A program made the translations under genes and the position numbers. Under the pieces are notes generated by a model. It worked only from the letters and a program-made list of their open reading frames with translations, searched no databases and was not told the origin of the DNA. A stretch of DNA of 46,410 nt from a virus (Duplodnaviria > Heunggongvirae > Uroviricota > Caudoviricetes): positions 1 to 46,410 of IMG/VR virus record IMGVR_UViG_2721755497_000002. One strand, 5' to 3'. Positions 5,233-22,177 of this stretch are shown piece by piece. Numbering within the stretch: the first letter of the stretch is position 1; each line of letters begins with the position of its first letter.

Positions 5233-5406
5233 TATCGCGCCCTCAACAATGAGTTTTGTGATGCGGTGCCTGGTGCCTCCAGGTGACGTTAACCAGTTAA
5301 CAATTAACGCCGGATACAGAGAATCCACCCATAACACTGTTTTTGGTTTTAACTGTTCCGCGTGCGCTTAGTCGCATTCACCGCATCACAAAATTCACTT
5401 TAAAAA

Positions 5407-13821: not shown

Positions 13822-14088
13822 TTTTATACCTTTTGTGTTGTGTGAACGATGAGTATAGTCAGAAATGAGACTGTGAAGGGGGATAGAAAATAATAGTTTG
13901 TTTTTGTAGAATCGCTGCGGGTGCTTGGGGCTATCTGTCTCAGGCATGAACACCAAAAGGCAGATAGAGAAAAGCCCCAGTTAACATTACGCGTCCGGCA
14001 AGACGCTTAACATTAATCTGAGGCCATATCTATGACTTGCACGCGTAGGTTAGCCTCTTACGTGCCGAAAGGCAAGGAGAAGCAGGCT

Positions 14089-14244
14089 ATGAAGCAGCAA
14101 AAGGCGATGTTAATCGCCCTGATCGTCATCTGTTTAACCGTCATAGTGACGGCACTGGTAACGAGGAAAGACCTCTGCGAGGTACGAATCCGAACCGGCC
14201 AGACGGAGGTCGCTGTCTTCACAGTCTACGAACCTGAGGAGTAA
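14089..14244 (+). CDS. hokD: Hok/Gef-family type I toxin
   Basis: Internal Met of ORF 14032..14244 gives MKQQKAMLIALIVICLTVIVTALVTRKDLCEVRIRTGQTEVAVFTVYEPEE, a near match to HokD/RelF as recalled; upstream in-frame extension is consistent with a mok-like leader. Confidence 0.8.
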   Translation: MKQQKAMLIALIVICLTVIVTALVTRKDLCEVRIRTGQTEVAVFTVYEPEE

Positions 14245-15747: not shown

Positions 15748-16125
15748 ATGACTGAACGCATAGAATTTGTTTTGCCTTACCCGCCGACGGTGAATACCTA
15801 CTGGCGACGTCATGGCAATACGTATTTCATCTCGGAGGCCGGAAAGCGTTATCGCCGTGATGTGGCGCTAATTGTTCGCCAGCAGCGGCTGAAATTAAAC
15901 CTGTCCGGAAGGCTGGCAATAAAAATTACTGCAGAGCCGCCGGATAAGCGCCGTCGGGACCTGGACAATATCCTGAAAGCACCGCTGGATGCACTGACGC
16001 ATGCGGGGCTTCTCATAGACGACGAGCAGTTTGATGAAATCAATATTGTGCGCGGTCAGCTCGTTCCTGGTGGGCGACTGGGCGTGAAGATTTGCGAAAT
16101 CAGAGGTGATGGTAATGGGGCGTGA
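15748..16125 (+). CDS. rusA: RusA Holliday junction resolvase
   Basis: 125 aa; motifs PPTVNTYWR and RRRDLDN...LDAL...AG match the RusA family. Confidence 0.85.
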   Translation: MTERIEFVLPYPPTVNTYWRRHGNTYFISEAGKRYRRDVALIVRQQRLKLNLSGRLAIKITAEPPDKRRRDLDNILKAPLDALTHAGLLIDDEQFDEINIVRGQLVPGGRLGVKICEIRGDGNGA

Positions 16126-16465
16126 TATGTATGAGGTTTTAGATCGCTGGGGGGCATGGGCTGCAGCAGAAAATAGCGGTGTCGATTGGCAACCGATAGC
16201 AGCGGGCTTCAAGGGGCTTTTGCCACATGGCAAAAAGTCACGTCTCCAGTGTGATGATGATGAAGGCATCATGATAGACGGTTGTGTGGCTCGGTTGCGA
16301 AAGTATAAACCAGAGGAATATGAGCTGCTCATAGCTCACTTTGTTATTGGTGTTTCTCTACGCTCAATCGCGAAGAAACGCAGGTGCTCAGATGGAACTA
16401 TAAGAAAGGAGCTGCAAACTGCATTAGGCTTTATTGATGGATGTATATGCTTGATTCTATCATAA
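16115..16465 (+). CDS. Late antiterminator Q (QuuD / phage 82 Q family)
   Basis: ORF 16106..16465; LDRWGAWAA...IAAGFKGL...RLQCDDDEG...DGCVARL resembles QuuD; likely start ATG 16115 after GAGGTGA. Confidence 0.75.
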   Translation: MGRDMYEVLDRWGAWAAAENSGVDWQPIAAGFKGLLPHGKKSRLQCDDDEGIMIDGCVARLRKYKPEEYELLIAHFVIGVSLRSIAKKRRCSDGTIRKELQTALGFIDGCICLILS

Positions 16466-16478
16466 GTTATGACTGTTA

Positions 16479-16865
16479 CTACTCGTTTGCTTGAGCTTTC
16501 GATTCGGCGTCAGATAAAGCATCAATACGAATATTTATGTTTTTTAATAGCTTATTGTCTAGATCGATAAGACATTGGTTGTAGTGCGCAATTTGGTCTG
16601 GTGTTAGGTTAGGGTTGGCCAGGCAGTTCGTGATGAATTTTCTGGCCGTTTTTATTTCCCTTTTCATTCTTACATCATTAAGCGTAGGCAAACCTATGTA
16701 AGCGATAAGAAGAATTACCACATGAGATAAGCCGACAGCAGCTCCAGGCGCCAATGATTTGAAGAAGGCTAATTGAGGAAGCCAGTCAAAAAGGAAATTC
16801 AATCCCGCAGTGATAAGGGTGGTAAACCATGCCTGCATTGCCAGGTAGGATTTAGTGTTCGCCAT
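16479..16865 (-). CDS. Uncharacterised membrane protein (cargo gene 3 of 3), two predicted TM helices plus helical C-terminus
   Basis: 128-aa ORF; hydrophobic segments WFTTLITAGLNFLF and VGLSHVVILLIAYIGL; start abuts stop of upstream gene; convergent with Q, 13-bp gap. Confidence 0.6.
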   Translation of the reverse strand: MANTKSYLAMQAWFTTLITAGLNFLFDWLPQLAFFKSLAPGAAVGLSHVVILLIAYIGLPTLNDVRMKREIKTARKFITNCLANPNLTPDQIAHYNQCLIDLDNKLLKNINIRIDALSDAESKAQANE

Positions 16866-17111
16866 TCACCTTCCTGCACTTGCTTCGTTGCGAGTTTTGA
16901 GTTCGCGTAGCAGTAGCGCCAACTCTTCTGCGTCATTTTCGTTTCTAACGCTGACTTTCCTTTTAGCGGTTCTGCCTTCAGGATCGGTGTAGGTTAGTTC
17001 AATATACGCATTCGGCTTTACCCAAACCAAGAACCTAAGCACAGCATATCTGACCGTCGCTGCGACAGCCATGAATACAGTGATGTAAAGCATAATGCTT
17101 AGGATTGACAT
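16866..17111 (-). CDS. Uncharacterised small membrane protein (cargo gene 2 of 3), one N-terminal TM helix
   Basis: 81-aa ORF; ILSIMLYITVFMAVAATV hydrophobic segment; translationally coupled to neighbours. Confidence 0.6.
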   Translation of the reverse strand: MSILSIMLYITVFMAVAATVRYAVLRFLVWVKPNAYIELTYTDPEGRTAKRKVSVRNENDAEELALLLRELKTRNEASAGR

Positions 17112-17114
17112 GAT

Positions 17115-18026
17115 TTAAAGTAGTTTCCTATCTGCCGCCGCTCTGTGGCGTATAACCTTAGTAATACTATAGCGTGGTTTAGACAGCGCGCCATTTGTTT
17201 CTTTTGTTGTTTCTGTCAGTTCTACAACAAAAAGATCACCCTTACAGAATGCTGCTTGGTTGTGTTCAACCCGTTCAAGAAAAGCCTCATCTTTCATAGA
17301 TGCGCTAACTTCTTCGCCATTTGGCAGGATGATATCCCAGCTTTTGCCTTGCTTGAATCGAACATTAGCAAAATGTACATTAGCTTGGCGTGTCGTTACG
17401 TGCGTTTTCTCGACAAAGGTGGATTTTGCAGTTTTAAAACTTACTGCTTCAGCTTGCGTCACCCTGACTACCTTATGCTTCTGCTGTGAAACTGAGAACG
17501 TGGATGGTTTTTCAGTCTGCAGGGGTTTATAGATTAATTTATCCAGTTCTTTTCGGATGATTGGACTGGTTATTAATTTTTGAATGTCGTTACTGCATTT
17601 AACCTTCTCACCATCCACTTCGATTTCTGCTGTATCTTTTTGTTCATCGACGACAATGGAGCTGATTTTACGCCCTTTGAGCCATTCGATTATCCCGAGT
17701 ACGCCACCTGCGGCAACTCCACCACCTGCAACGAGGCCAAGGGCGTTAATAGTTTTTATGCTCCCCATCACAGCAACAAGCAAAGTAAATGAACCTTCTT
17801 TTGTTGCCTTGATGTTGACTTTCGGCTCTGCTGTTTCGCCATTAATTATTTTTTCGGCGTGTTCAATCAGGGCACTAAGAGAGGTTAAGGCTTCGCCTAA
17901 TGTTTTCGCGTCGATCTGATTATCTGCGTATGCCTCTCCACCGTAGGCAATTTCGATTTCTGTTATTGGCATGTTTTCGAGTTGCTGCGTCATCAAAAGC
18001 ATCCTTTGCGCAAGAGAAATAGCCAC
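17115..18026 (-). CDS. Uncharacterised protein (cargo gene 1 of 3) with central Gly/Ala-rich hydrophobic segment
   Basis: 303-aa ORF (track start is GTG; probable true start ATG at 17993 after AAGGA, giving 292 aa); hydrophobic LLVAVMGSIKTINALGLVAGGGVAAGGVLGII; no recognisable catalytic motif. Confidence 0.6.
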   Translation of the reverse strand: MAISLAQRMLLMTQQLENMPITEIEIAYGGEAYADNQIDAKTLGEALTSLSALIEHAEKIINGETAEPKVNIKATKEGSFTLLVAVMGSIKTINALGLVAGGGVAAGGVLGIIEWLKGRKISSIVVDEQKDTAEIEVDGEKVKCSNDIQKLITSPIIRKELDKLIYKPLQTEKPSTFSVSQQKHKVVRVTQAEAVSFKTAKSTFVEKTHVTTRQANVHFANVRFKQGKSWDIILPNGEEVSASMKDEAFLERVEHNQAAFCKGDLFVVELTETTKETNGALSKPRYSITKVIRHRAAADRKLL

Positions 18027-18115
18027 AGGATACAGATAATTATGAAAAAATCACTAACGCGTACGCAAAAACTATCTTAATCTGTTAAGAGTGGTCGCTT
18101 CGCCACACAACTTAA

Positions 18116-18140
18116 ACCCGCATCAAGCGGTTTTTTTTGT
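18116..18140 (+). terminator. Weak intrinsic terminator (CCGCatcaaGCGG + T8) upstream of the tRNA cluster; possible tR'
   Basis: Short GC stem followed by eight T residues on the plus strand. Confidence 0.35.
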
Positions 18141-18243
18141 GCCACTTATCTCGGATAGACATGGTGAATGCGCTGGTGGAGGAGATAAGGGTGATTTTTG
18201 AATGCTTGCAACATTGATTTCGTAACGTTATTATCCTGCGCCC

Positions 18244-18319
18244 GGCCCTTTAGCTCAGTGGTGAGAGCGAGCGACTCATAATCGCCAGGTCGCTGGTTCA
18301 AATCCAGCAAGGGCCACCA
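18244..18319 (+). tRNA. tRNA with CAU anticodon (Met or lysidine-dependent Ile2; ileZ-like phage tRNA)
   Basis: 76 nt GGCCCTTTAGCTCAGTGGTGAGAGC...ACTCATAATCG...GGTTCAAATCCAGCAAGGGCCACCA; canonical cloverleaf. Confidence 0.8.
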
Positions 18320-18326
18320 TCTCATA

Positions 18327-18403
18327 CCGCCATTAGCTCATCGGGACAGAGCGCCAGCCTTCGAAGCTGGCGGCGCGGGGTTCGGGTCCTCGATGGCGGT
18401 CCA
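18327..18403 (+). tRNA. tRNA-Arg, anticodon UCG (argN-like phage tRNA)
   Basis: 77 nt; acceptor CCGCCAT/ATGGCGG, anticodon loop CTTCGAA, T-arm CGGGG-TTCGGGT-CCTCG, CCA end. Confidence 0.75.
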
Positions 18404-18416
18404 TTATCTGCACCAT

Positions 18417-18490
18417 GCGGTCATCGTATAATGGCTATTGCATCAGCCTTCCTGGCTGATTATGCGGGGCAATTCCCGCTGACCGCTCCA
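18417..18490 (+). tRNA. tRNA-like element, argO-like but degenerate (non-canonical anticodon loop CTTCCTG and shortened T-loop GCAATT)
   Basis: Acceptor GCGGTCA/TGACCGC with CCA end; anticodon and T-loops deviate from consensus; may be a pseudo-tRNA. Confidence 0.4.
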
Positions 18491-18675
18491 TAGTGGATTA
18501 TGGGTACTGTATGTTAAGCATTTTTCTTCGTTACCCTTCATCGGTAAAAAAGCGTACAACAACTATTTATGCTGCCATTAGCGATGATAGTATAGTTACT
18601 GGTTCTTTCGTAGTGTGTTTATTTGTTTGCTATATTTTTATCGATAATTGACATTCTTCAGATGGGGATGAATAA

Positions 18676-19104
18676 ATGTATTGCCGTGGTTTGCCAGTTC
18701 TTGTTTTGATATTCGCCTGCCTGGCAGCAGGCTGCACAAAAGATGTATCAACAAATTATCATGATAGTGCGCCATATCACGCAGGTGAATTAACAAAGGT
18801 TAAGAATGTTAATCCATCTGAAAGTACTGCTGATGTTAGTGAAGACATTCGTCATTATGCCGGTCAAATCAAAAAAGCCATTGAAGAACAGTTCAGGGAA
18901 CCGGGTAAGTATTCCGGGAAAGTGTGTTCACTGAGAATGAATATGGCTCCGAATGGTCTTCTGTTGCAGGTTAAAAGAGAAGGTGGAGACCCCGATTTAT
19001 GTCGTGAAGCGATGAATGCGGTGAAGCATGCTGATATACCAGCACCGCCGTCTCCGGAAGTATATAAAGTATTTCACAATGGAGTGCTGGATTTTAAACC
19101 GTGA
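18676..19104 (+). CDS. Lipoprotein carrying a TolA C-terminal (domain III)-like domain
   Basis: 142 aa; signal peptide with lipobox LAAGC; C-terminal 85 aa (YAGQIKKAIEEQF...GKVCSLRMNMAPNGLLLQVKREGGDPDLC...IPAPPSPEVYKVFHNGVLDFKP) closely parallels E. coli TolA domain III as recalled. Confidence 0.7.
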   Translation: MYCRGLPVLVLIFACLAAGCTKDVSTNYHDSAPYHAGELTKVKNVNPSESTADVSEDIRHYAGQIKKAIEEQFREPGKYSGKVCSLRMNMAPNGLLLQVKREGGDPDLCREAMNAVKHADIPAPPSPEVYKVFHNGVLDFKP

Positions 19105-19304
19105 TTCTACATCTTTGCAGTAAACAATAATCATAATTGCATGTTTTTTCTGTGGTGGGGCATTTGGCTTCTGTTGCCTGCGATGTATTGTGGACCTGGT
19201 ATCAGCCTGCAGAAAATGCACACAGGTGTGAAGTGTTAAATTCCTCACAACTCAGAACGCAGAATGTTGTCCTGCTTGCGGGGAATTTGTTAAAAGAGTA
19301 CAGC

Positions 19305-19423
19305 ATGGTGAATCCCCCTGAGCGGAGGGGCATAATGACAGATGTTTGGTCGTGTTATCGTATAGGCAAGTTGCGGATTCTGTCTGGTCATTGCAGAATT
19401 CACCGGGAGGCACCCGGCACCAT
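19305..19423. repeat. Repeat unit copy 1 (about 119 bp): ATGGTGAATCCCCCTGAGCGGAGGGGC ... CACCGGGAGGCACCCGGCACCAT with two GC-rich hairpins
   Basis: Termini shared with copy 2 and mutually reverse-complementary (ATGGTG / CACCAT). Confidence 0.45.
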
Positions 19424-19558
19424 GTATTTTCAATATGTTATTGATCATTCTCTTTTTCGGAATACTCTGGTTATGTTTTCCTGTAACTGATAATTAAATC
19501 ACATTTTGTGTAACTGCATATTGTCTGAACGGGATAAGTTTCAGTATCTTCTGAATGT

Positions 19559-19678
19559 ATGGCGAATCCCCCTGTGCGGCGGGGCGTACTGATTTAAGTA
19601 GTCATCCAAGAATGCAGCTGAATGAAAACGCGCTCCATATTAATCAGTGGTGGAGCACCGGGAGGCACCCGGCGCCAT
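19559..19678. repeat. Repeat unit copy 2 (about 120 bp): ATGGCGAATCCCCCTGTGCGGCGGGGC ... CACCGGGAGGCACCCGGCGCCAT
   Basis: Same terminal hairpin modules as copy 1, divergent interior. Confidence 0.45.
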
Positions 19679-19707
19679 ACCGATGATGAAAGTAAATGCG
19701 TCCATCC

Positions 19708-19732
19708 GCCCCTCTCCGGAGGGGCTTTTTTA
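19708..19732 (+). terminator. Strong rho-independent terminator (GCCCCTCtccgGAGGGGC + TTTTTT) upstream of nanS-p
   Basis: 7-bp GC stem, 4-nt loop, T-tract. Confidence 0.6.
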
Positions 19733-19913
19733 TGGGCAAAAAAAGCCCGCTACGAATGGTAACGGGCTGCACAAAATAACAAAATGTGAAGTATTCTAAT
19801 CAGCCGCTGAATAATACCCGACAGTAATTAATCTGTGCAACGGTGCTTTTTCCCGCCTTGCAGGCACCGACTCTCTCATTTGATTTAACGCATTATCCCG
19901 TCCGGGAGGATTC

Positions 19914-21857
19914 ATGACATTTAAATATTATGATGTGGTTTCGGCCAGAACAACTGATGAATTAAAGCGGAAACTGAACGAAAAAATCCGTGAAGGATGG
20001 CAGCCTTATGGAACAATATCTGTTTCATCTGTGAGTGGTACTGAAGACATATATCATCAGCCAGTTGCTGCTGAGGGGGAGGTGAGTACGCCGGTGATAC
20101 GTCCTGATGCCGGTGATGATTCATCTGTGGCCGTCTCCGGATCGCCTGATTATTACTACGTGGTGGTACTGGCGGGGCAGTCAAATGGCATGGCCTATGG
20201 TGAAGGGTTTCCGTTACCGGATTCATTTGACCGCCCGGACCCACGGATTAAGCAACTGGCACGCCGCAGCACGGTCACGCCAGGTGGTACGCCGTGTAAA
20301 TACAATGACATCATTCCGGCAGACCACTGCCTGCATGATGTGCAGGACATGAGCGGGATAAACCACCCAAAAGCTGACCTGAACAAGGGGCAGTATGGTT
20401 GTGTGAGTCAGGGGCTGCATATTGCCAAAAAACTGCTGCCTTATATCCCGCAGAATGCCGGGATACTTCTGGTGCCCTGTTGCCGTGGCGGGTCAGCATT
20501 CACCACCGGGCCGGACGGTTCATTCAGTGAGGCCAGCGGTGCTTCCGCTGATTCTTCACGCTGGGGAGTCGGTAAACCTCTGTATCAGGACCTGGTAAGC
20601 CGCACCAAAGTCGCGCTGGCGAAGAACCCGAAAAACAAACTTCTGGCTGTGGTCTGGATGCAGGGAGAGGCAGACCTTGCATCGGGAAGTCAGCAGCATA
20701 ATGGTTTATTCACTGCCATGGTTCAGCAGTTCAGAGCCGACCTGTCTCCGCTTGCTGCGCAGTGCGTGAGTGGAAATGCTGGCACGGTACCGTGGATTTG
20801 TGGTGATACCACGTATTACTGGAAAAACGCTGGCACCGATAAATATGAGGCGGTATACGGTGGCTACAAAGGCAAGGAAACTCAGAATATTTTCTTTGTA
20901 CCGTTCCTGACGGATGAGAATGGACAGAACACGCCAACGAATGCTCCGACGGAAGATCCGGATATTGTGGCTGTCGGGTATTACGGTGCGGCATCCCGTA
21001 CCCAGGGCAGTTTTGTCTCGACACAGCGTGACAGCCATTTCAGTTCATGGGCACGCAGGGGCATCATTTCTGACCGTCTGGCCTCCTCTATTCTGCTCCA
21101 TGCAGGGCGCACGGCTGAACTGCTGGGCGGGCAGGCCGTGACACCACCGGATGAGAAGCCATCACCTGACACTCCATCAACATCACCGGGTGAAACTACC
21201 GGGATGACAACACTGTTTGCATACAGGGCCAGCGATTCGGAAGGACAACTGACTCCACAGGGCTGGGGGGCTGGCGGAGGTAGTGCCGCTGTTGTGGATG
21301 ATGCCGGAGCCAGTGGAGGTAAGGCGATGAAGCTTACCAAAGCGACGGGAAAATCCTCCTGGTACCTGGAACATGATGCCGGTAATGGTGCCGACCTGCT
21401 GGGCAAAGGCGGCCTTGTCAGTTGTCGTTTTAAACTTGATGGCGCGCTTACGGCTAATCAGTACGCACTGGCGCTGTACTGGCCGGTTTCTGCCCTGCCA
21501 CAAGGGGTTACCCTGGAAGGTAATGCTGGTCATAACCTGCTGGCATCTTTTTACGTTCAGAGCGATGCGACAGACCTTAACGTGATGTACCACAAGGGCG
21601 ATACGGCGCAAAACATGAAACTGGGGTCATTCGGTGCATTTGACAACGAGTGGCATACGTTGGGCTTCCGTTTCGCCGGTAACAACAGTATTGAGGTGAC
21701 GCCGGTCATTGATGGTCAGGACGGGACGCCGTTCATGCTGTCGCAGTTACCTGTCGGTTCTTTTGCGGCAGACAAGTTGCGCGTGACCGATATTACCAGT
21801 GCAGCAACGTATCCGGTGCTGATTGACAGCATAGTGGTGGAAGTGAATAACGCGTAA
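19914..21857 (+). CDS. nanS: NanS-p-type sialate O-acetylesterase (DUF1737 N-domain + SGNH/SASA esterase domain)
   Basis: 647 aa; N-terminus MTFKYYDVVSARTTDELKRKLNEKIREGWQPYGTISVSS (DUF1737-like); GQSN motif (VLAGQSNGMAYGEG); position between tRNAs and lysis genes as in EHEC prophages. Confidence 0.8.
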   Translation: MTFKYYDVVSARTTDELKRKLNEKIREGWQPYGTISVSSVSGTEDIYHQPVAAEGEVSTPVIRPDAGDDSSVAVSGSPDYYYVVVLAGQSNGMAYGEGFPLPDSFDRPDPRIKQLARRSTVTPGGTPCKYNDIIPADHCLHDVQDMSGINHPKADLNKGQYGCVSQGLHIAKKLLPYIPQNAGILLVPCCRGGSAFTTGPDGSFSEASGASADSSRWGVGKPLYQDLVSRTKVALAKNPKNKLLAVVWMQGEADLASGSQQHNGLFTAMVQQFRADLSPLAAQCVSGNAGTVPWICGDTTYYWKNAGTDKYEAVYGGYKGKETQNIFFVPFLTDENGQNTPTNAPTEDPDIVAVGYYGAASRTQGSFVSTQRDSHFSSWARRGIISDRLASSILLHAGRTAELLGGQAVTPPDEKPSPDTPSTSPGETTGMTTLFAYRASDSEGQLTPQGWGAGGGSAAVVDDAGASGGKAMKLTKATGKSSWYLEHDAGNGADLLGKGGLVSCRFKLDGALTANQYALALYWPVSALPQGVTLEGNAGHNLLASFYVQSDATDLNVMYHKGDTAQNMKLGSFGAFDNEWHTLGFRFAGNNSIEVTPVIDGQDGTPFMLSQLPVGSFAADKLRVTDITSAATYPVLIDSIVVEVNNA

Positions 21858-21988
21858 GCAGGACAAAAAAATGCCGCCGGGAAAGGGAAAACAAGGAAAC
21901 CGGCGGCAAAGGTCGTCACATCTAAAGCAAAAATGCAGGACGCCTTTTTAACCAACAGGTATTAACGATGTCAACACCATGTCGATAA

Positions 21989-22177
21989 TTGGGAGGGATA
22001 ATGACATTTTTACAGCTTATTTTATTGTATTTCTGTACGGCGGTGTGTGCACTGTATCTGGTGAGTGGTGGGTACAAAATTATACGCAACTACATCCGTA
22101 AAAAGATTGATGCCATGGCGGCTGAAAAAATCAGTGCCGGTCAGTCAGCAGAGCCAAAGTCCACGTCCCTCCCGTAA
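21989..22177 (+). CDS. Hypothetical small membrane protein
   Basis: 62-aa ORF with hydrophobic N-terminus FLQLILLYFCTAVCALYLV. Confidence 0.35.
   Translation: MGGIMTFLQLILLYFCTAVCALYLVSGGYKIIRNYIRKKIDAMAAEKISAGQSAEPKSTSLP

What the first reader, a model, noticed from the sequence alone, without database searches (positions are those of the whole stretch)
19305..19678. Two copies of a ~120-bp structured repeat upstream of nanS-p
Each unit begins ATGG(T/C)GAATCCCCCTG(A/T)GCGG(A/C)GGGGC and ends CACCGGGAGGCACCCGGC(A/G)CCAT. The termini are reverse complements of one another and each unit carries two GC-rich hairpins, while the roughly 70-bp interiors are unrelated. The first 10 nt resemble the ERIC terminal motif GTGAATCCCC, but the rest does not. 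Options include a MITE-like element pair, transcribed structured RNAs, or protein-binding modules in the late leader. The region has no convincing ORF; ORF 19137..19490 looks spurious.
Basis: seen in the sequence. Interest (0 to 1): 0.5.

Follow-up and report, generated by a model that had tools for sequence, protein, structure and literature searches.

The report
Two tandem STnc100 prophage small-RNA genes
The two ~120-bp "structured repeats" are neighbouring copies of a known prophage small-RNA family (Rfam STnc100; relatives PasD and EcOnc27 in pathogenic E. coli), so the finding is real but largely already explained.

Summary
Both units exist at the stated coordinates and are far beyond chance. 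They are not MITEs or ERIC/REP repeats. Each matches Rfam RF02076 (STnc100) well above the curated threshold: 118.9 and 98.5 bits against 47. This family consists of transcribed, Hfq-bound sRNAs that sit between the late promoter and the lysis genes of lambdoid and Stx prophages. Known members include EcOnc27/sRNA103 downstream of stx2B and the distant relative PasD1/2.

Across 96 relatives from many Enterobacterales, every helix shows compensatory changes. G·U outnumbers A·C by 186 to 38, so the structure is RNA read on the + strand. The two interiors share no sequence but build the same pseudoknotted arm, which the Rfam model does not annotate.

Copy 2 looks like a complete gene of about 175 nt, with a promoter-like site, the structured domain, a 27-nt linker and a terminator. 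Copy 1 has a weak promoter and no terminator, so it probably reads into copy 2 or is decaying.

A convergent minus-strand sRNA candidate occupies the slot that AgvB/AsxR holds in EHEC. A third, divergent copy of the domain lies between dicF and dicB.

Function is inferred from homologues: a base-pairing sRNA built on a conserved scaffold. Interest is low to moderate.

The parts
19267..19296 (+). Weak promoter-like region of copy 1 (TTGTCC, 17 nt, TGtTAAAAG). It is homologous in position to the TTGACT...TTAAAAAAA promoter of the O157 orthologue.
   Evidence: Read from the sequence and compared with L124. It does not pass the consensus scan. Inferred only.
19303..19425 (+). STnc100 structured domain, copy 1. 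P1 19303-10/19418-25; P2 19315-19/19326-30; P3 (pseudoknot) 19334-39/19387-92; conserved GCG 19373-75; P4 19375-83/19393-19401; P5 19403-17.
   Evidence: Rfam RF02076, 118.9 bits, E 1.6e-26. Own model R1, 88.3 bits. Helix covariation across 96 relatives.
19426..19556 (+). Spacer between the copies. It has no intrinsic terminator and contains the promoter-like site of copy 2 (TTGTCT 19521-26, 18 nt, TATCTT 19545-50).
   Evidence: No terminator-like site in the scan. The Rfam terminator positions are unpaired for copy 1. Promoter score 8/12 at the family-typical distance.
19557..19680 (+). STnc100 structured domain, copy 2. P1 19557-64/19673-80; P2 19569-73/19580-84; P3 19587-94/19642-49; P4 19632-38/19650-56; P5 19658-72.
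   Evidence: Rfam RF02076, 98.5 bits, E 2.6e-21. R1, 86.3 bits. P3/P4 identified.
19681..19707 (+). Linker that is mostly unpaired in the MFE fold (CGAUGAUGAAAGUAAAUGCGUCCAUCC), with only a weak local hairpin. It is the candidate seed region, lying where the PasD seed lies.
   Evidence: Position by analogy with PasD2. Linkers differ between relatives. Median linker length in the family is 27.5 nt. Inferred.
19708..19731 (+). Intrinsic terminator of copy 2 (GCCCCTCTCCGGAGGGGC + TTTTTT). Predicted 3' end of a ~175-nt RNA from 19557, or a ~429-nt two-domain RNA from 19303.
   Evidence: Terminator scan: 7 pairs, 6 G-C. Matches the Rfam terminator stem. Fold.
19735..19839 (-). Convergent minus-strand candidate sRNA. 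Promoter-like TGCACA-17-TATTAT (19839-19811), a ~70-nt RNA (about 19806-19735), and a terminator hairpin at 19768-19744 followed by a U-run. It occupies the slot of AgvB/AsxR in EHEC 'sRNA dyads'.
   Evidence: Promoter and terminator scan. Fold z = -3.17. In the O157 locus, AgvB (RF02702, 56.6 bits) sits in exactly this position and orientation after STnc100. No AgvB/AsxR match in the window at E<=10.

Best explanation
The two units are the structured 5' bodies of two tandem genes of the STnc100 family of prophage small RNAs. They lie in the late-region 'moron' slot of a lambdoid prophage (Q, late promoter, tRNAs, TolA-like ORF, sRNAs, nanS-p, lysis genes).

Shown here: both match the curated family model, and the fold is an RNA fold on the + strand. 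It consists of an 8-bp closing helix P1 (one terminal G.U pair in each window copy), two near-invariant hairpins (P2 CCCCU-NNGCGG-AGGGG and P5 CCGGG-AGGCA-CCCGG), and a variable arm. In that arm the segment just 3' of P2 pairs with the loop of hairpin P4, forming an H-type pseudoknot.

Inferred from homologues (PasD2, EcOnc27, the O157 orthologue): transcription starts at the first nucleotide of P1 from a sigma-70 promoter. The domain acts as a constant scaffold, giving 5'-end protection and/or protein binding; PasD is stabilised by Hfq, and PasD2 is the most abundant RNA in CsrA-bound chimeras. The variable ~27-nt linker plus terminator U-tail would be the Hfq-dependent base-pairing module that acts on mRNAs in trans.

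In this window copy 2 is a complete ~175-nt gene. Copy 1 has a weakened promoter and no terminator. It therefore either reads through to give a ~430-nt two-domain RNA ending at the copy-2 terminator, as in the multi-domain arrays seen in other species, or it is decaying. During lytic growth, Q-modified polymerase would read through the whole cluster.
For: Rfam RF02076 gives 118.9 and 98.5 bits against a gathering score of 47. Own covariance model: 96 matches in 71 sources across many Enterobacterales genera.

Pair counts: P1 89.5% paired, with 7 of 8 pairs changed on both sides. P4, which was not part of the model, is 84.6% paired with 8 of 8. P3 is 92.3% with 5 of 5. The whole structure is 89.0% paired against 71.2% in shuffles and 38-46% when slid by 1-3 columns. 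On the MAFFT-only alignment, P1 is 91% and outer P4 is 91%. G.U 186 against A.C 38.

The two window copies have chance-level interior identity yet identical P3/P4 geometry.

Promoter-like sites are enriched at a fixed distance upstream in the family: 29/92 against 8.7 expected. Terminators lie a median 27.5 nt downstream in at least 38/93.

The PasD2 5' end maps to the first nucleotide of P1 and its 3' end to the terminator U-run. PasD is Hfq-dependent on Northern blots and its seed lies in the linker. The PasD2 chimera is the most abundant with CsrA. EDL933 has 11 transcribed STnc100 loci, one Northern-verified. EcOnc27/sRNA103 is Hfq-bound downstream of stx2B. The STnc100 + convergent AgvB dyad is seen in the O157 orthologous locus.
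Against: No expression data exist for this strain, so transcription, ends and Hfq binding are all by homology. MFE folding of each unit alone is not significantly better than shuffles (z -1.2 and -1.6). Copy 1 lacks a convincing -10 element and any terminator. No target is known for any STnc100 proper, and the only reported effects (fimZ/espA) have an unclear mechanism. P3 support comes partly from an alignment fitted to P3: in the unfitted MAFFT alignment only 51% of P3 cells pair, and a partner-swap control still finds a 5/5 match in 21% of non-self loops. The near-invariant hairpin loops suggest a function beyond scaffolding a seed.
Confidence: 0.8

Rival explanations
1. The conserved domain is itself the functional part. 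It would be a protein-binding handle or sponge (for CsrA, Hfq, ProQ or a phage protein), and base pairing by the linker would be secondary or absent. Tandem or multi-domain transcripts would then raise the valency.
For: P2 and P5 loops are near-invariant across genera, while the stems of P1, P3 and P4 and the linkers vary freely. P5 carries a CGGGA (MNGGA-type) motif. The PasD2-yjbJ 3'UTR pair is the most abundant CsrA-bound chimera. Arrays of three to six or more domains without intervening promoters or terminators occur on a Pantoea plasmid. The same domain occurs in the dicF-dicB spacer, with no sRNA-like 3' module.
Against: PasD targets share a motif complementary to the linker seed, and PasD stability depends on Hfq. 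The GGA of P5 lies half inside the stem, which is not the canonical loop presentation. No binding data exist for STnc100 proper.
Confidence: 0.25
2. The units act in cis on the late transcript, as processing, stability or attenuation elements for nanS-p and the lysis genes, rather than as independent sRNAs.
For: They lie between the late promoter-like site (18206-18234) and nanS-p on the same strand. A related domain sits directly upstream of dicB and other small ORFs. Copy 1 has no terminator of its own.
Against: Family members are followed by unrelated genes, or by none. Many carry their own promoter-like site and terminator. The copy-2 terminator and a convergent terminator separate the units from nanS-p by about 180 nt. 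Homologues accumulate as discrete ~170-210-nt RNAs in uninduced lysogens.
Confidence: 0.1
3. Copy 1 is a decaying duplicate: a pseudogene left by recombination between two STnc100 variants. Only copy 2 is functional.
For: In copy 1, TTGACT...AAAAAT of close relatives is replaced by TTGTCC...AAAAGA, and the linker plus terminator present in the O157 and E. ruysiae orthologues are missing.
Against: All helices of copy 1 are intact and it scores higher than copy 2. Terminator-less domains feeding into a downstream domain occur in other species. The pair is conserved at >=97.9% in 12 genomes.
Confidence: 0.3
4. The units are a pair of MITE-like or ERIC/REP-type DNA repeats with terminal inverted repeats.
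For: Short complementary termini are present, and the first 10 nt equal the ERIC end GTGAATCCCC.
Against: The ERIC 22-mer has no match with <=3 mismatches. The termini covary as an RNA helix with a G.U bias. No flanking direct repeats are visible in the sequence. The position in prophages is syntenic. The match to the sRNA family is strong.
Confidence: 0.02

Closest known systems
Rfam RF02076 STnc100 (Gammaproteobacterial sRNA; includes EHEC EcOnc27/sRNA103 downstream of stx2B and the 11 STnc100 loci of EDL933)
   Same: Both copies match the whole 206-position model above threshold. They share the closing helix, the P2 and P5 hairpins and, for copy 2, the terminator. The prophage late-region location next to tRNAs, nanS-p and the lysis genes is the same.
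   Different: Here two genes lie in tandem, 254 nt apart, and the first lacks a terminator. The interiors differ from all common E. coli variants: copy 1 is 86% identical to the O157 type, and the copy-2 type is found in only about 27 genomes. The stx slot holds a TolA-C-terminal-domain ORF instead of a toxin.
PasD1/PasD2 of EPEC E2348/69 (= EcOnc13 homologues)
   Same: Same architecture (5' domain starting at +1, linker, terminator). Same position directly upstream of the SASA esterase gene. P1, P2, P3 and P4 are all recognisable.
   Different: PasD scores below the Rfam threshold (41.4 and 37.7 bits), its P5 hairpin is degenerate, and its seed UGUGAG is absent from the window's linkers. The window copies are therefore not PasD.
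sRNA 'dyads' of EHEC lambdoid prophages (EcOnc06/AgvB, EcOnc27/AsxR; Tree et al. 2014 as summarised in PMC7873438)
   Same: A + strand STnc100-type sRNA is followed by a convergent minus-strand short RNA with back-to-back terminators, between the late promoter and the lysis genes.
   Different: The window has two + strand genes, not one. Its minus-strand candidate does not match the AgvB or AsxR models.
ERIC/IRU enterobacterial repeats
   Same: Ten identical bases at one end (GTGAATCCCC). Both are about 120 bp and able to fold.
   Different: There is no further similarity. ERIC is a long imperfect palindrome scattered in intergenic regions, whereas this is a multi-helix junction with a pseudoknot at a fixed prophage position.

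Membership tests
Rfam RF02076 STnc100 | Score at or above the curated gathering threshold (47 bits) against the family covariance model | tested here: met
   118.9 bits (19274-19478) and 98.5 bits (19529-19737), full-length matches.
Rfam RF02076 STnc100 | Closing helix plus internal hairpins conserved as RNA structure (covariation) | tested here: met
   P1, P2, P4 and P5 are 82-98% paired with compensatory changes. 0/500 shuffles reach the observed values, and slid controls give 38-46%. G.U 186 against A.C 38.
Rfam RF02076 STnc100 | Own promoter and Rho-independent terminator (independent sRNA gene) | tested here: inconclusive
   Copy 2 has a promoter-like site at 8/12 and a strong terminator. 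Copy 1 has a weak promoter-like site and no terminator. These are pattern matches only.
Rfam RF02076 STnc100 | Transcribed and Hfq-associated | not testable with these tools
   Shown only for homologues: Northern and RNA-seq in EDL933, Hfq-CRAC for EcOnc27, RIL-seq and Northern for PasD.
PasD (EPEC) | PasD sequence including the linker seed UGUGAG and its terminator | tested here: not met
   The window linkers and spacer contain no UGUGAG. PasD is only a sub-threshold relative of the family model.
ERIC/IRU repeat | Match to the conserved ERIC end/core sequence | tested here: not met
   GTGAATCCCCAGGAGCTTACAT has 0 matches with up to 3 mismatches. The consensus was recalled from the standard ERIC1R primer.
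MITE | Terminal inverted repeats flanked by target-site duplications; dispersed near-identical copies | tested here: not met
   The complementary termini are 8 nt and covary as RNA. The flanks (GTACA|...|ATTTTC and CTGAAT|...|CGATGA) show no duplication. The interiors of the two copies are unrelated in sequence.
tRNA / tRNA-like gene | Cloverleaf recognised by a tRNA finder | tested here: not met
   ARAGORN finds tRNAs only at 892-981, 18244-18319 and 18327-18403. Rfam tRNA hits are only at 18244-18487. The four-arm topology resembles a tRNA only loosely.
AgvB / AsxR anti-sRNAs (for the minus-strand partner at 19735-19806) | Match to RF02702 or RF02703 | tested here: not met
   No match at E<=10 in 17000-22000. 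The O157 orthologous slot gives AgvB at 56.6 bits. Same position and layout, different sequence.

The most novel reading that the evidence does not exclude
The ~120-nt STnc100 domain may be more than a decorative 5' structure. It could be a discrete, widely spread RNA module: a P1-closed four-way junction with two invariant hairpin loops and a covarying H-type pseudoknot that the Rfam model lacks. Such a module would recruit a specific protein (CsrA or another factor) or block 5'-end-dependent decay. Prophages would combine it with interchangeable 3' seeds, string it into multi-domain arrays, and place it in front of dicB in about three quarters of E. coli genomes. That would make it a modular 'handle + programmable seed' platform.
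Probability: 0.3. Interest if true: 0.6.

Novelty: new member of a known kind. Interest (0 to 1): 0.3.

Why it matters
For annotation, this resolves an unannotated intergenic region. The identical RefSeq record lists no feature there. The region is an sRNA cluster of a type already linked to virulence regulation in EHEC and EPEC. In this prophage the TolA-domain ORF sits in the usual toxin slot, and in this search the copy-2 variant was found almost only in mouse-derived E. coli (12 genomes).

The added value lies in the family-wide picture. There is strong covariation support, evidence for a pseudoknot missing from the curated model, tandem and multi-domain arrays in several genera, and a divergent copy in the dicF-dicB spacer. 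If the domain proves to be a protein-binding handle, it would explain why so many prophage sRNAs share one scaffold with different seeds.

Tried and rejected
- **Single-sequence MFE folding.** z-scores of -1.2 and -1.6 on the + strand are not discriminating, so thermodynamics alone does not show structure.
- **tRNA finder.** Nothing found in the units.
- **ERIC end search.** No match.
- **Pfam on ORF 19137-19490.** Only a sub-threshold chance hit, so the ORF was rejected.
- **Consensus promoter scan.** It misses both sRNA promoters at its 9/12 cut-off, so I used a position-restricted scan with shuffled controls instead.
- **Testing P3 on the MAFFT alignment.** Only 51% of cells paired, because the register is not fixed. 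A strict test requiring the last 6 loop nucleotides to pair gave 21/70 against 5% non-self. A duplex-energy self versus non-self test was significant but gave modest ranks. P3 is therefore supported but less firmly than P1 and P4.
- **PasE, the CsrA-guiding sRNA.** It is an unrelated 56-nt RNA, so it was not used as a homologue.
- **Hammerhead-like CUGAUGA...GAA strings.** These appear in some long variants (seen). They occur only in a subset and were judged coincidental.
- **Sampling bias from the 17-mer scan of genome contigs.** Covariation in P5 therefore rests only on the few extra hits the model found: CCTGG/CCAGG, CCGTG/CACGG and TCGGG/CCCGA.

Full report
**What is there.** The window is a lambdoid prophage 100% identical to E. 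coli M3, a mouse isolate (NZ_CP010183). Around the finding, all on the + strand, the order is:
- an antiterminator Q gene (16106-16465, Pfam Phage_antitermQ);
- a short annotated antiterminator remnant, followed by a promoter-like site at 18206-18234;
- a tRNA cluster at 18244-18487;
- a 142-aa ORF with a TolA C-terminal domain (18676-19104);
- the two repeat units;
- a NanS-p-type esterase (19914-21857; DUF1737 + SASA + DUF6645);
- holin, lysozyme and Rz.

The RefSeq record annotates nothing between the TolA-like ORF and the esterase.

**Checking the observation.** Both motifs occur far more often than in shuffled sequence. The complementary termini extend to 8 bp, one of them a terminal G.U wobble pair. 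The interiors have no sequence similarity beyond chance: 38 identical of 79 aligned columns, against 39.1 +/- 2.8 for shuffles. The description is therefore accurate.

**Identification.** A scan of Rfam 15 gives two full-length matches to RF02076 (STnc100):
- 19274-19478, 118.9 bits, E 1.6e-26;
- 19529-19737, 98.5 bits, E 2.6e-21.

The gathering score is 47. No other family fits. tRNA finders, an ERIC-end search and Pfam on the overlapping ORF are all negative.

**What the literature says about the family.**
- EDL933 has 11 transcribed STnc100 loci, one confirmed by Northern blot (PMC5331693).
- A copy lies 75 nt downstream of stx2B and is found in outer-membrane vesicles (PMC12370729).
- The Hfq-bound sRNA EcOnc27/sRNA103 overlaps that copy. 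Its overexpression raises fimZ and espA transcripts by an unclear mechanism (PMC12711010 and PMC7873438).
- Salmonella LT2 has several copies with RpoD/RpoN ChIP-exo signal (PMC10794520).
- PasD1/PasD2 of EPEC are Hfq-dependent, about 172 nt, and carry a linker seed UGUGAG. Others have recently recognised them as structural relatives (bioRxiv 10.64898/2026.05.13.724894 and PMC8550237).
- The PasD2-yjbJ 3'UTR pair is the most abundant CsrA-bound chimera in EPEC (bioRxiv 10.64898/2026.08.12.744399).

**Family-wide structure.** I scanned one genome per species for the 3' hairpin 17-mer. About 74 genuine units were recovered from many Enterobacterales, including Kosakonia, Enterobacter, Klebsiella, Raoultella, Salmonella, Pantoea, Erwinia, Rahnella, Superficieibacter and E. 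ruysiae. There were also chance hits in GC-rich Actinobacteria.

A covariance model built from these units found 96 matches in the fetched loci. These include both window copies (88.3 and 86.3 bits), PasD1/2 (33.2 bits) and a third window site. Pair counts on that alignment are:

| Helix | Cells paired | Pairs changed on both sides | Note |
|---|---|---|---|
| P1 | 89.5% | 7 of 8 | |
| P2 | 81.9% | 4 of 5 | |
| P3 | 92.3% | 5 of 5 | alignment fitted to this helix |
| P4 | 84.6% | 8 of 8 | deliberately left out of the model |
| P5 | 98.5% | 3 of 5 | largely invariant by selection |

Overall, 89.0% of cells pair. Column shuffles give 71.2%, and sliding partners by 1-3 columns gives 38-46%. On the plain MAFFT alignment, P1 and the outer half of P4 already pair in 91% of cells. 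In P1, P3 and P4, G.U pairs outnumber A.C by 186 to 38. This points to an RNA read on the + strand, not a DNA-level palindrome.

**The pseudoknot.** In nearly every unit, the 5-9 nt just 3' of P2 are complementary to the 3' part of the P4 loop. The two window copies illustrate this with completely different sequences:

| | P3 | P4 |
|---|---|---|
| Copy 1 | AAUGAC / GUCAUU | GGAUUCUGU / GCAGAAUUC |
| Copy 2 | UACUGAUU / AAUCAGUG | GCUCCAU / GUGGAGC |

Both copies have a 3-nt 5' loop segment and no spacer before P4b.

Controls:
- Interior shuffles give both helices of at least 6 bp in 7% of cases, against 61% for real units.
- A unit's P3a finds a perfect 5-mer partner in its own loop in 82% of cases, against 21% in unrelated loops.
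- Self duplex energy is better than permuted energy in 5000 of 5000 permutations.

P3 is less secure than P1 and P4. It pairs in only 51% of cells in the unfitted alignment, and the 92% figure comes from an alignment fitted to it. The Rfam model does not annotate this helix, and PasD2 has it too.

**Gene anatomy.** The experimentally estimated PasD2 5' end is the first nucleotide of P1, and its 3' end is the terminator U-run. Across the family, sigma-70-like sites are enriched, with the -10 element ending 5-8 nt before P1: 29 of 92 units against 8.7 expected. A terminator follows after a median 27.5-nt linker in at least 38 of 93 units. The first ~30 positions of the Rfam model therefore probably describe promoter DNA.

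- **Copy 2** fits this pattern: TTGTCT-18-TATCTT, predicted start 19557, linker 19681-19707, terminator 19708-19731. That gives about 175 nt.
- **Copy 1** does not. Its O157 orthologue has TTGACT, its own 26-nt linker and its own terminator. In the window the -35 and -10 elements are degraded and no terminator precedes copy 2.

Copy 1 must therefore read through, giving about 429 nt with two domains, or be silent. Multi-domain transcripts are plausible, because arrays of three to six or more domains without intervening signals occur on a Pantoea plasmid, and triplets occur in Superficieibacter.

The linkers of relatives are unrelated in sequence. This fits a constant scaffold carrying variable seeds.

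**Locus context.** A minus-strand terminator (19768-19744) lies immediately after the copy-2 terminator. It is preceded by a promoter-like site (19839-19811). Together they predict a ~70-nt convergent RNA that folds better than all shuffles tested (z = -3.17). In the O157 orthologous locus, this slot holds AgvB (RF02702, 56.6 bits). This matches the published 'dyads' of Hfq-binding sRNAs between the late promoter and the lysis genes. The window's candidate matches neither AgvB nor AsxR.

**Distribution.** Single-copy relatives occur in about 1,080 of 5,426 complete E. coli genomes, with a median of 2 places per genome. The full tandem region occurs in only 12 genomes. No phage record among 50,697 covers 80% of it. 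The copy-2 variant at >=97.9% identity is confined to 12 genomes, nearly all from mice.

**Verdict.** The finding is real, but it rediscovers a curated sRNA family. The MITE and ERIC readings are rejected.

The most likely mechanism is a trans-acting, Hfq-associated sRNA made of a conserved structured 5' domain plus a variable seed and terminator. Copy 2 would be the complete gene, and copy 1 would be read-through or decaying. This mechanism is inferred from homologues and has not been shown for this locus.

What the invariant domain itself does remains open. Options are protein handle, sponge, 5'-end protection or cis processing. That question is the only part with real novelty potential.

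Noticed in passing
window 5261-5386 (- strand): A third, divergent copy of the same structured domain lies between DicF (Rfam RF00039, 5407-5458 '-') and the dicB start codon. It scores 38 bits against STnc100, below threshold, but 61.1 bits against my family model. Its P1 extends to about 17 bp, its P5 carries a compensatory change (CCTGG/CCAGG), and P3 and P4 are present. The same 'subfamily' (5' hairpin GAATGCGNCTNAGCGCACGCG) precedes small ORFs in Citrobacter, Lelliottia, Klebsiella, Pantoea and others. The dicF-dicB segment is present in 4028 of 5426 E. coli genomes.
   Followed up: partly
window 18676-19104 (+): A 142-aa ORF with a TolA C-terminal domain (Pfam PF06519, 83 bits; annotated 'tolA' in RefSeq) occupies the moron slot where Stx phages carry stxAB, between the tRNA cluster and the sRNAs. 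A phage-borne TolA domain III could interfere with Tol-dependent colicin or filamentous-phage entry.
   Followed up: partly
window 19735-19839 (- strand): Candidate ~70-nt convergent sRNA. It has a promoter-like TGCACA-17-TATTAT and a terminator AGCCCGUUACCAUUCGUAGCGGGCU + U7, in the position AgvB/AsxR hold in EHEC, but it matches neither Rfam model.
   Followed up: partly
window 16106-18490: An intact Q gene (16106-16465) is separated from the late promoter-like site (18206-18234) by two minus-strand ORFs without Pfam matches (16479-16865, 17115-18026) and a 37-aa 'antiterminator' remnant. This suggests an insertion into, or replacement of, an older Q region. The third tRNA-like element (18417-18487, Rfam 42.8 bits, PGAP 'tRNA-Gly') is not called by ARAGORN.
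   Followed up: no
L089, L066, L120 (Pantoea sp. App145 plasmid pAPP145_2); L086 (Superficieibacter electus); L075, L081, L048: Tandem arrays of STnc100 domains. At least six lie within ~1 kb in L089 and five in L066, with ~130-nt spacing and no intervening promoter or terminator. L086 has three complete genes ~260 nt apart. Tandem organisation is therefore not unique to the window.
   Followed up: partly
L124 2800-2868 (E. coli O157:H7 FRIK2455): Downstream of the STnc100-AgvB dyad there is a + strand segment (…UCAUUUUUAUCGUGUGGAUU…GGCUGCGCAACUGCGCGGCCUUUUU) resembling the PasD linker and terminator. PasD may have arisen by fusion of an STnc100 domain to such a 3' module.
   Followed up: no
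window 13919-14094 (+): Sok antitoxin RNA (RF01794, 111.5 bits) next to the annotated hokD toxin gene. This is an ordinary hok/sok module in the prophage early region.
   Followed up: no
window 19500-19740 and relatives: The copy-2 sequence variant (>=97.9% identity) is found in only 12 complete E. coli genomes, almost all isolated from mice. Relatives at ~81% identity are also mostly from rodents.
   Followed up: no
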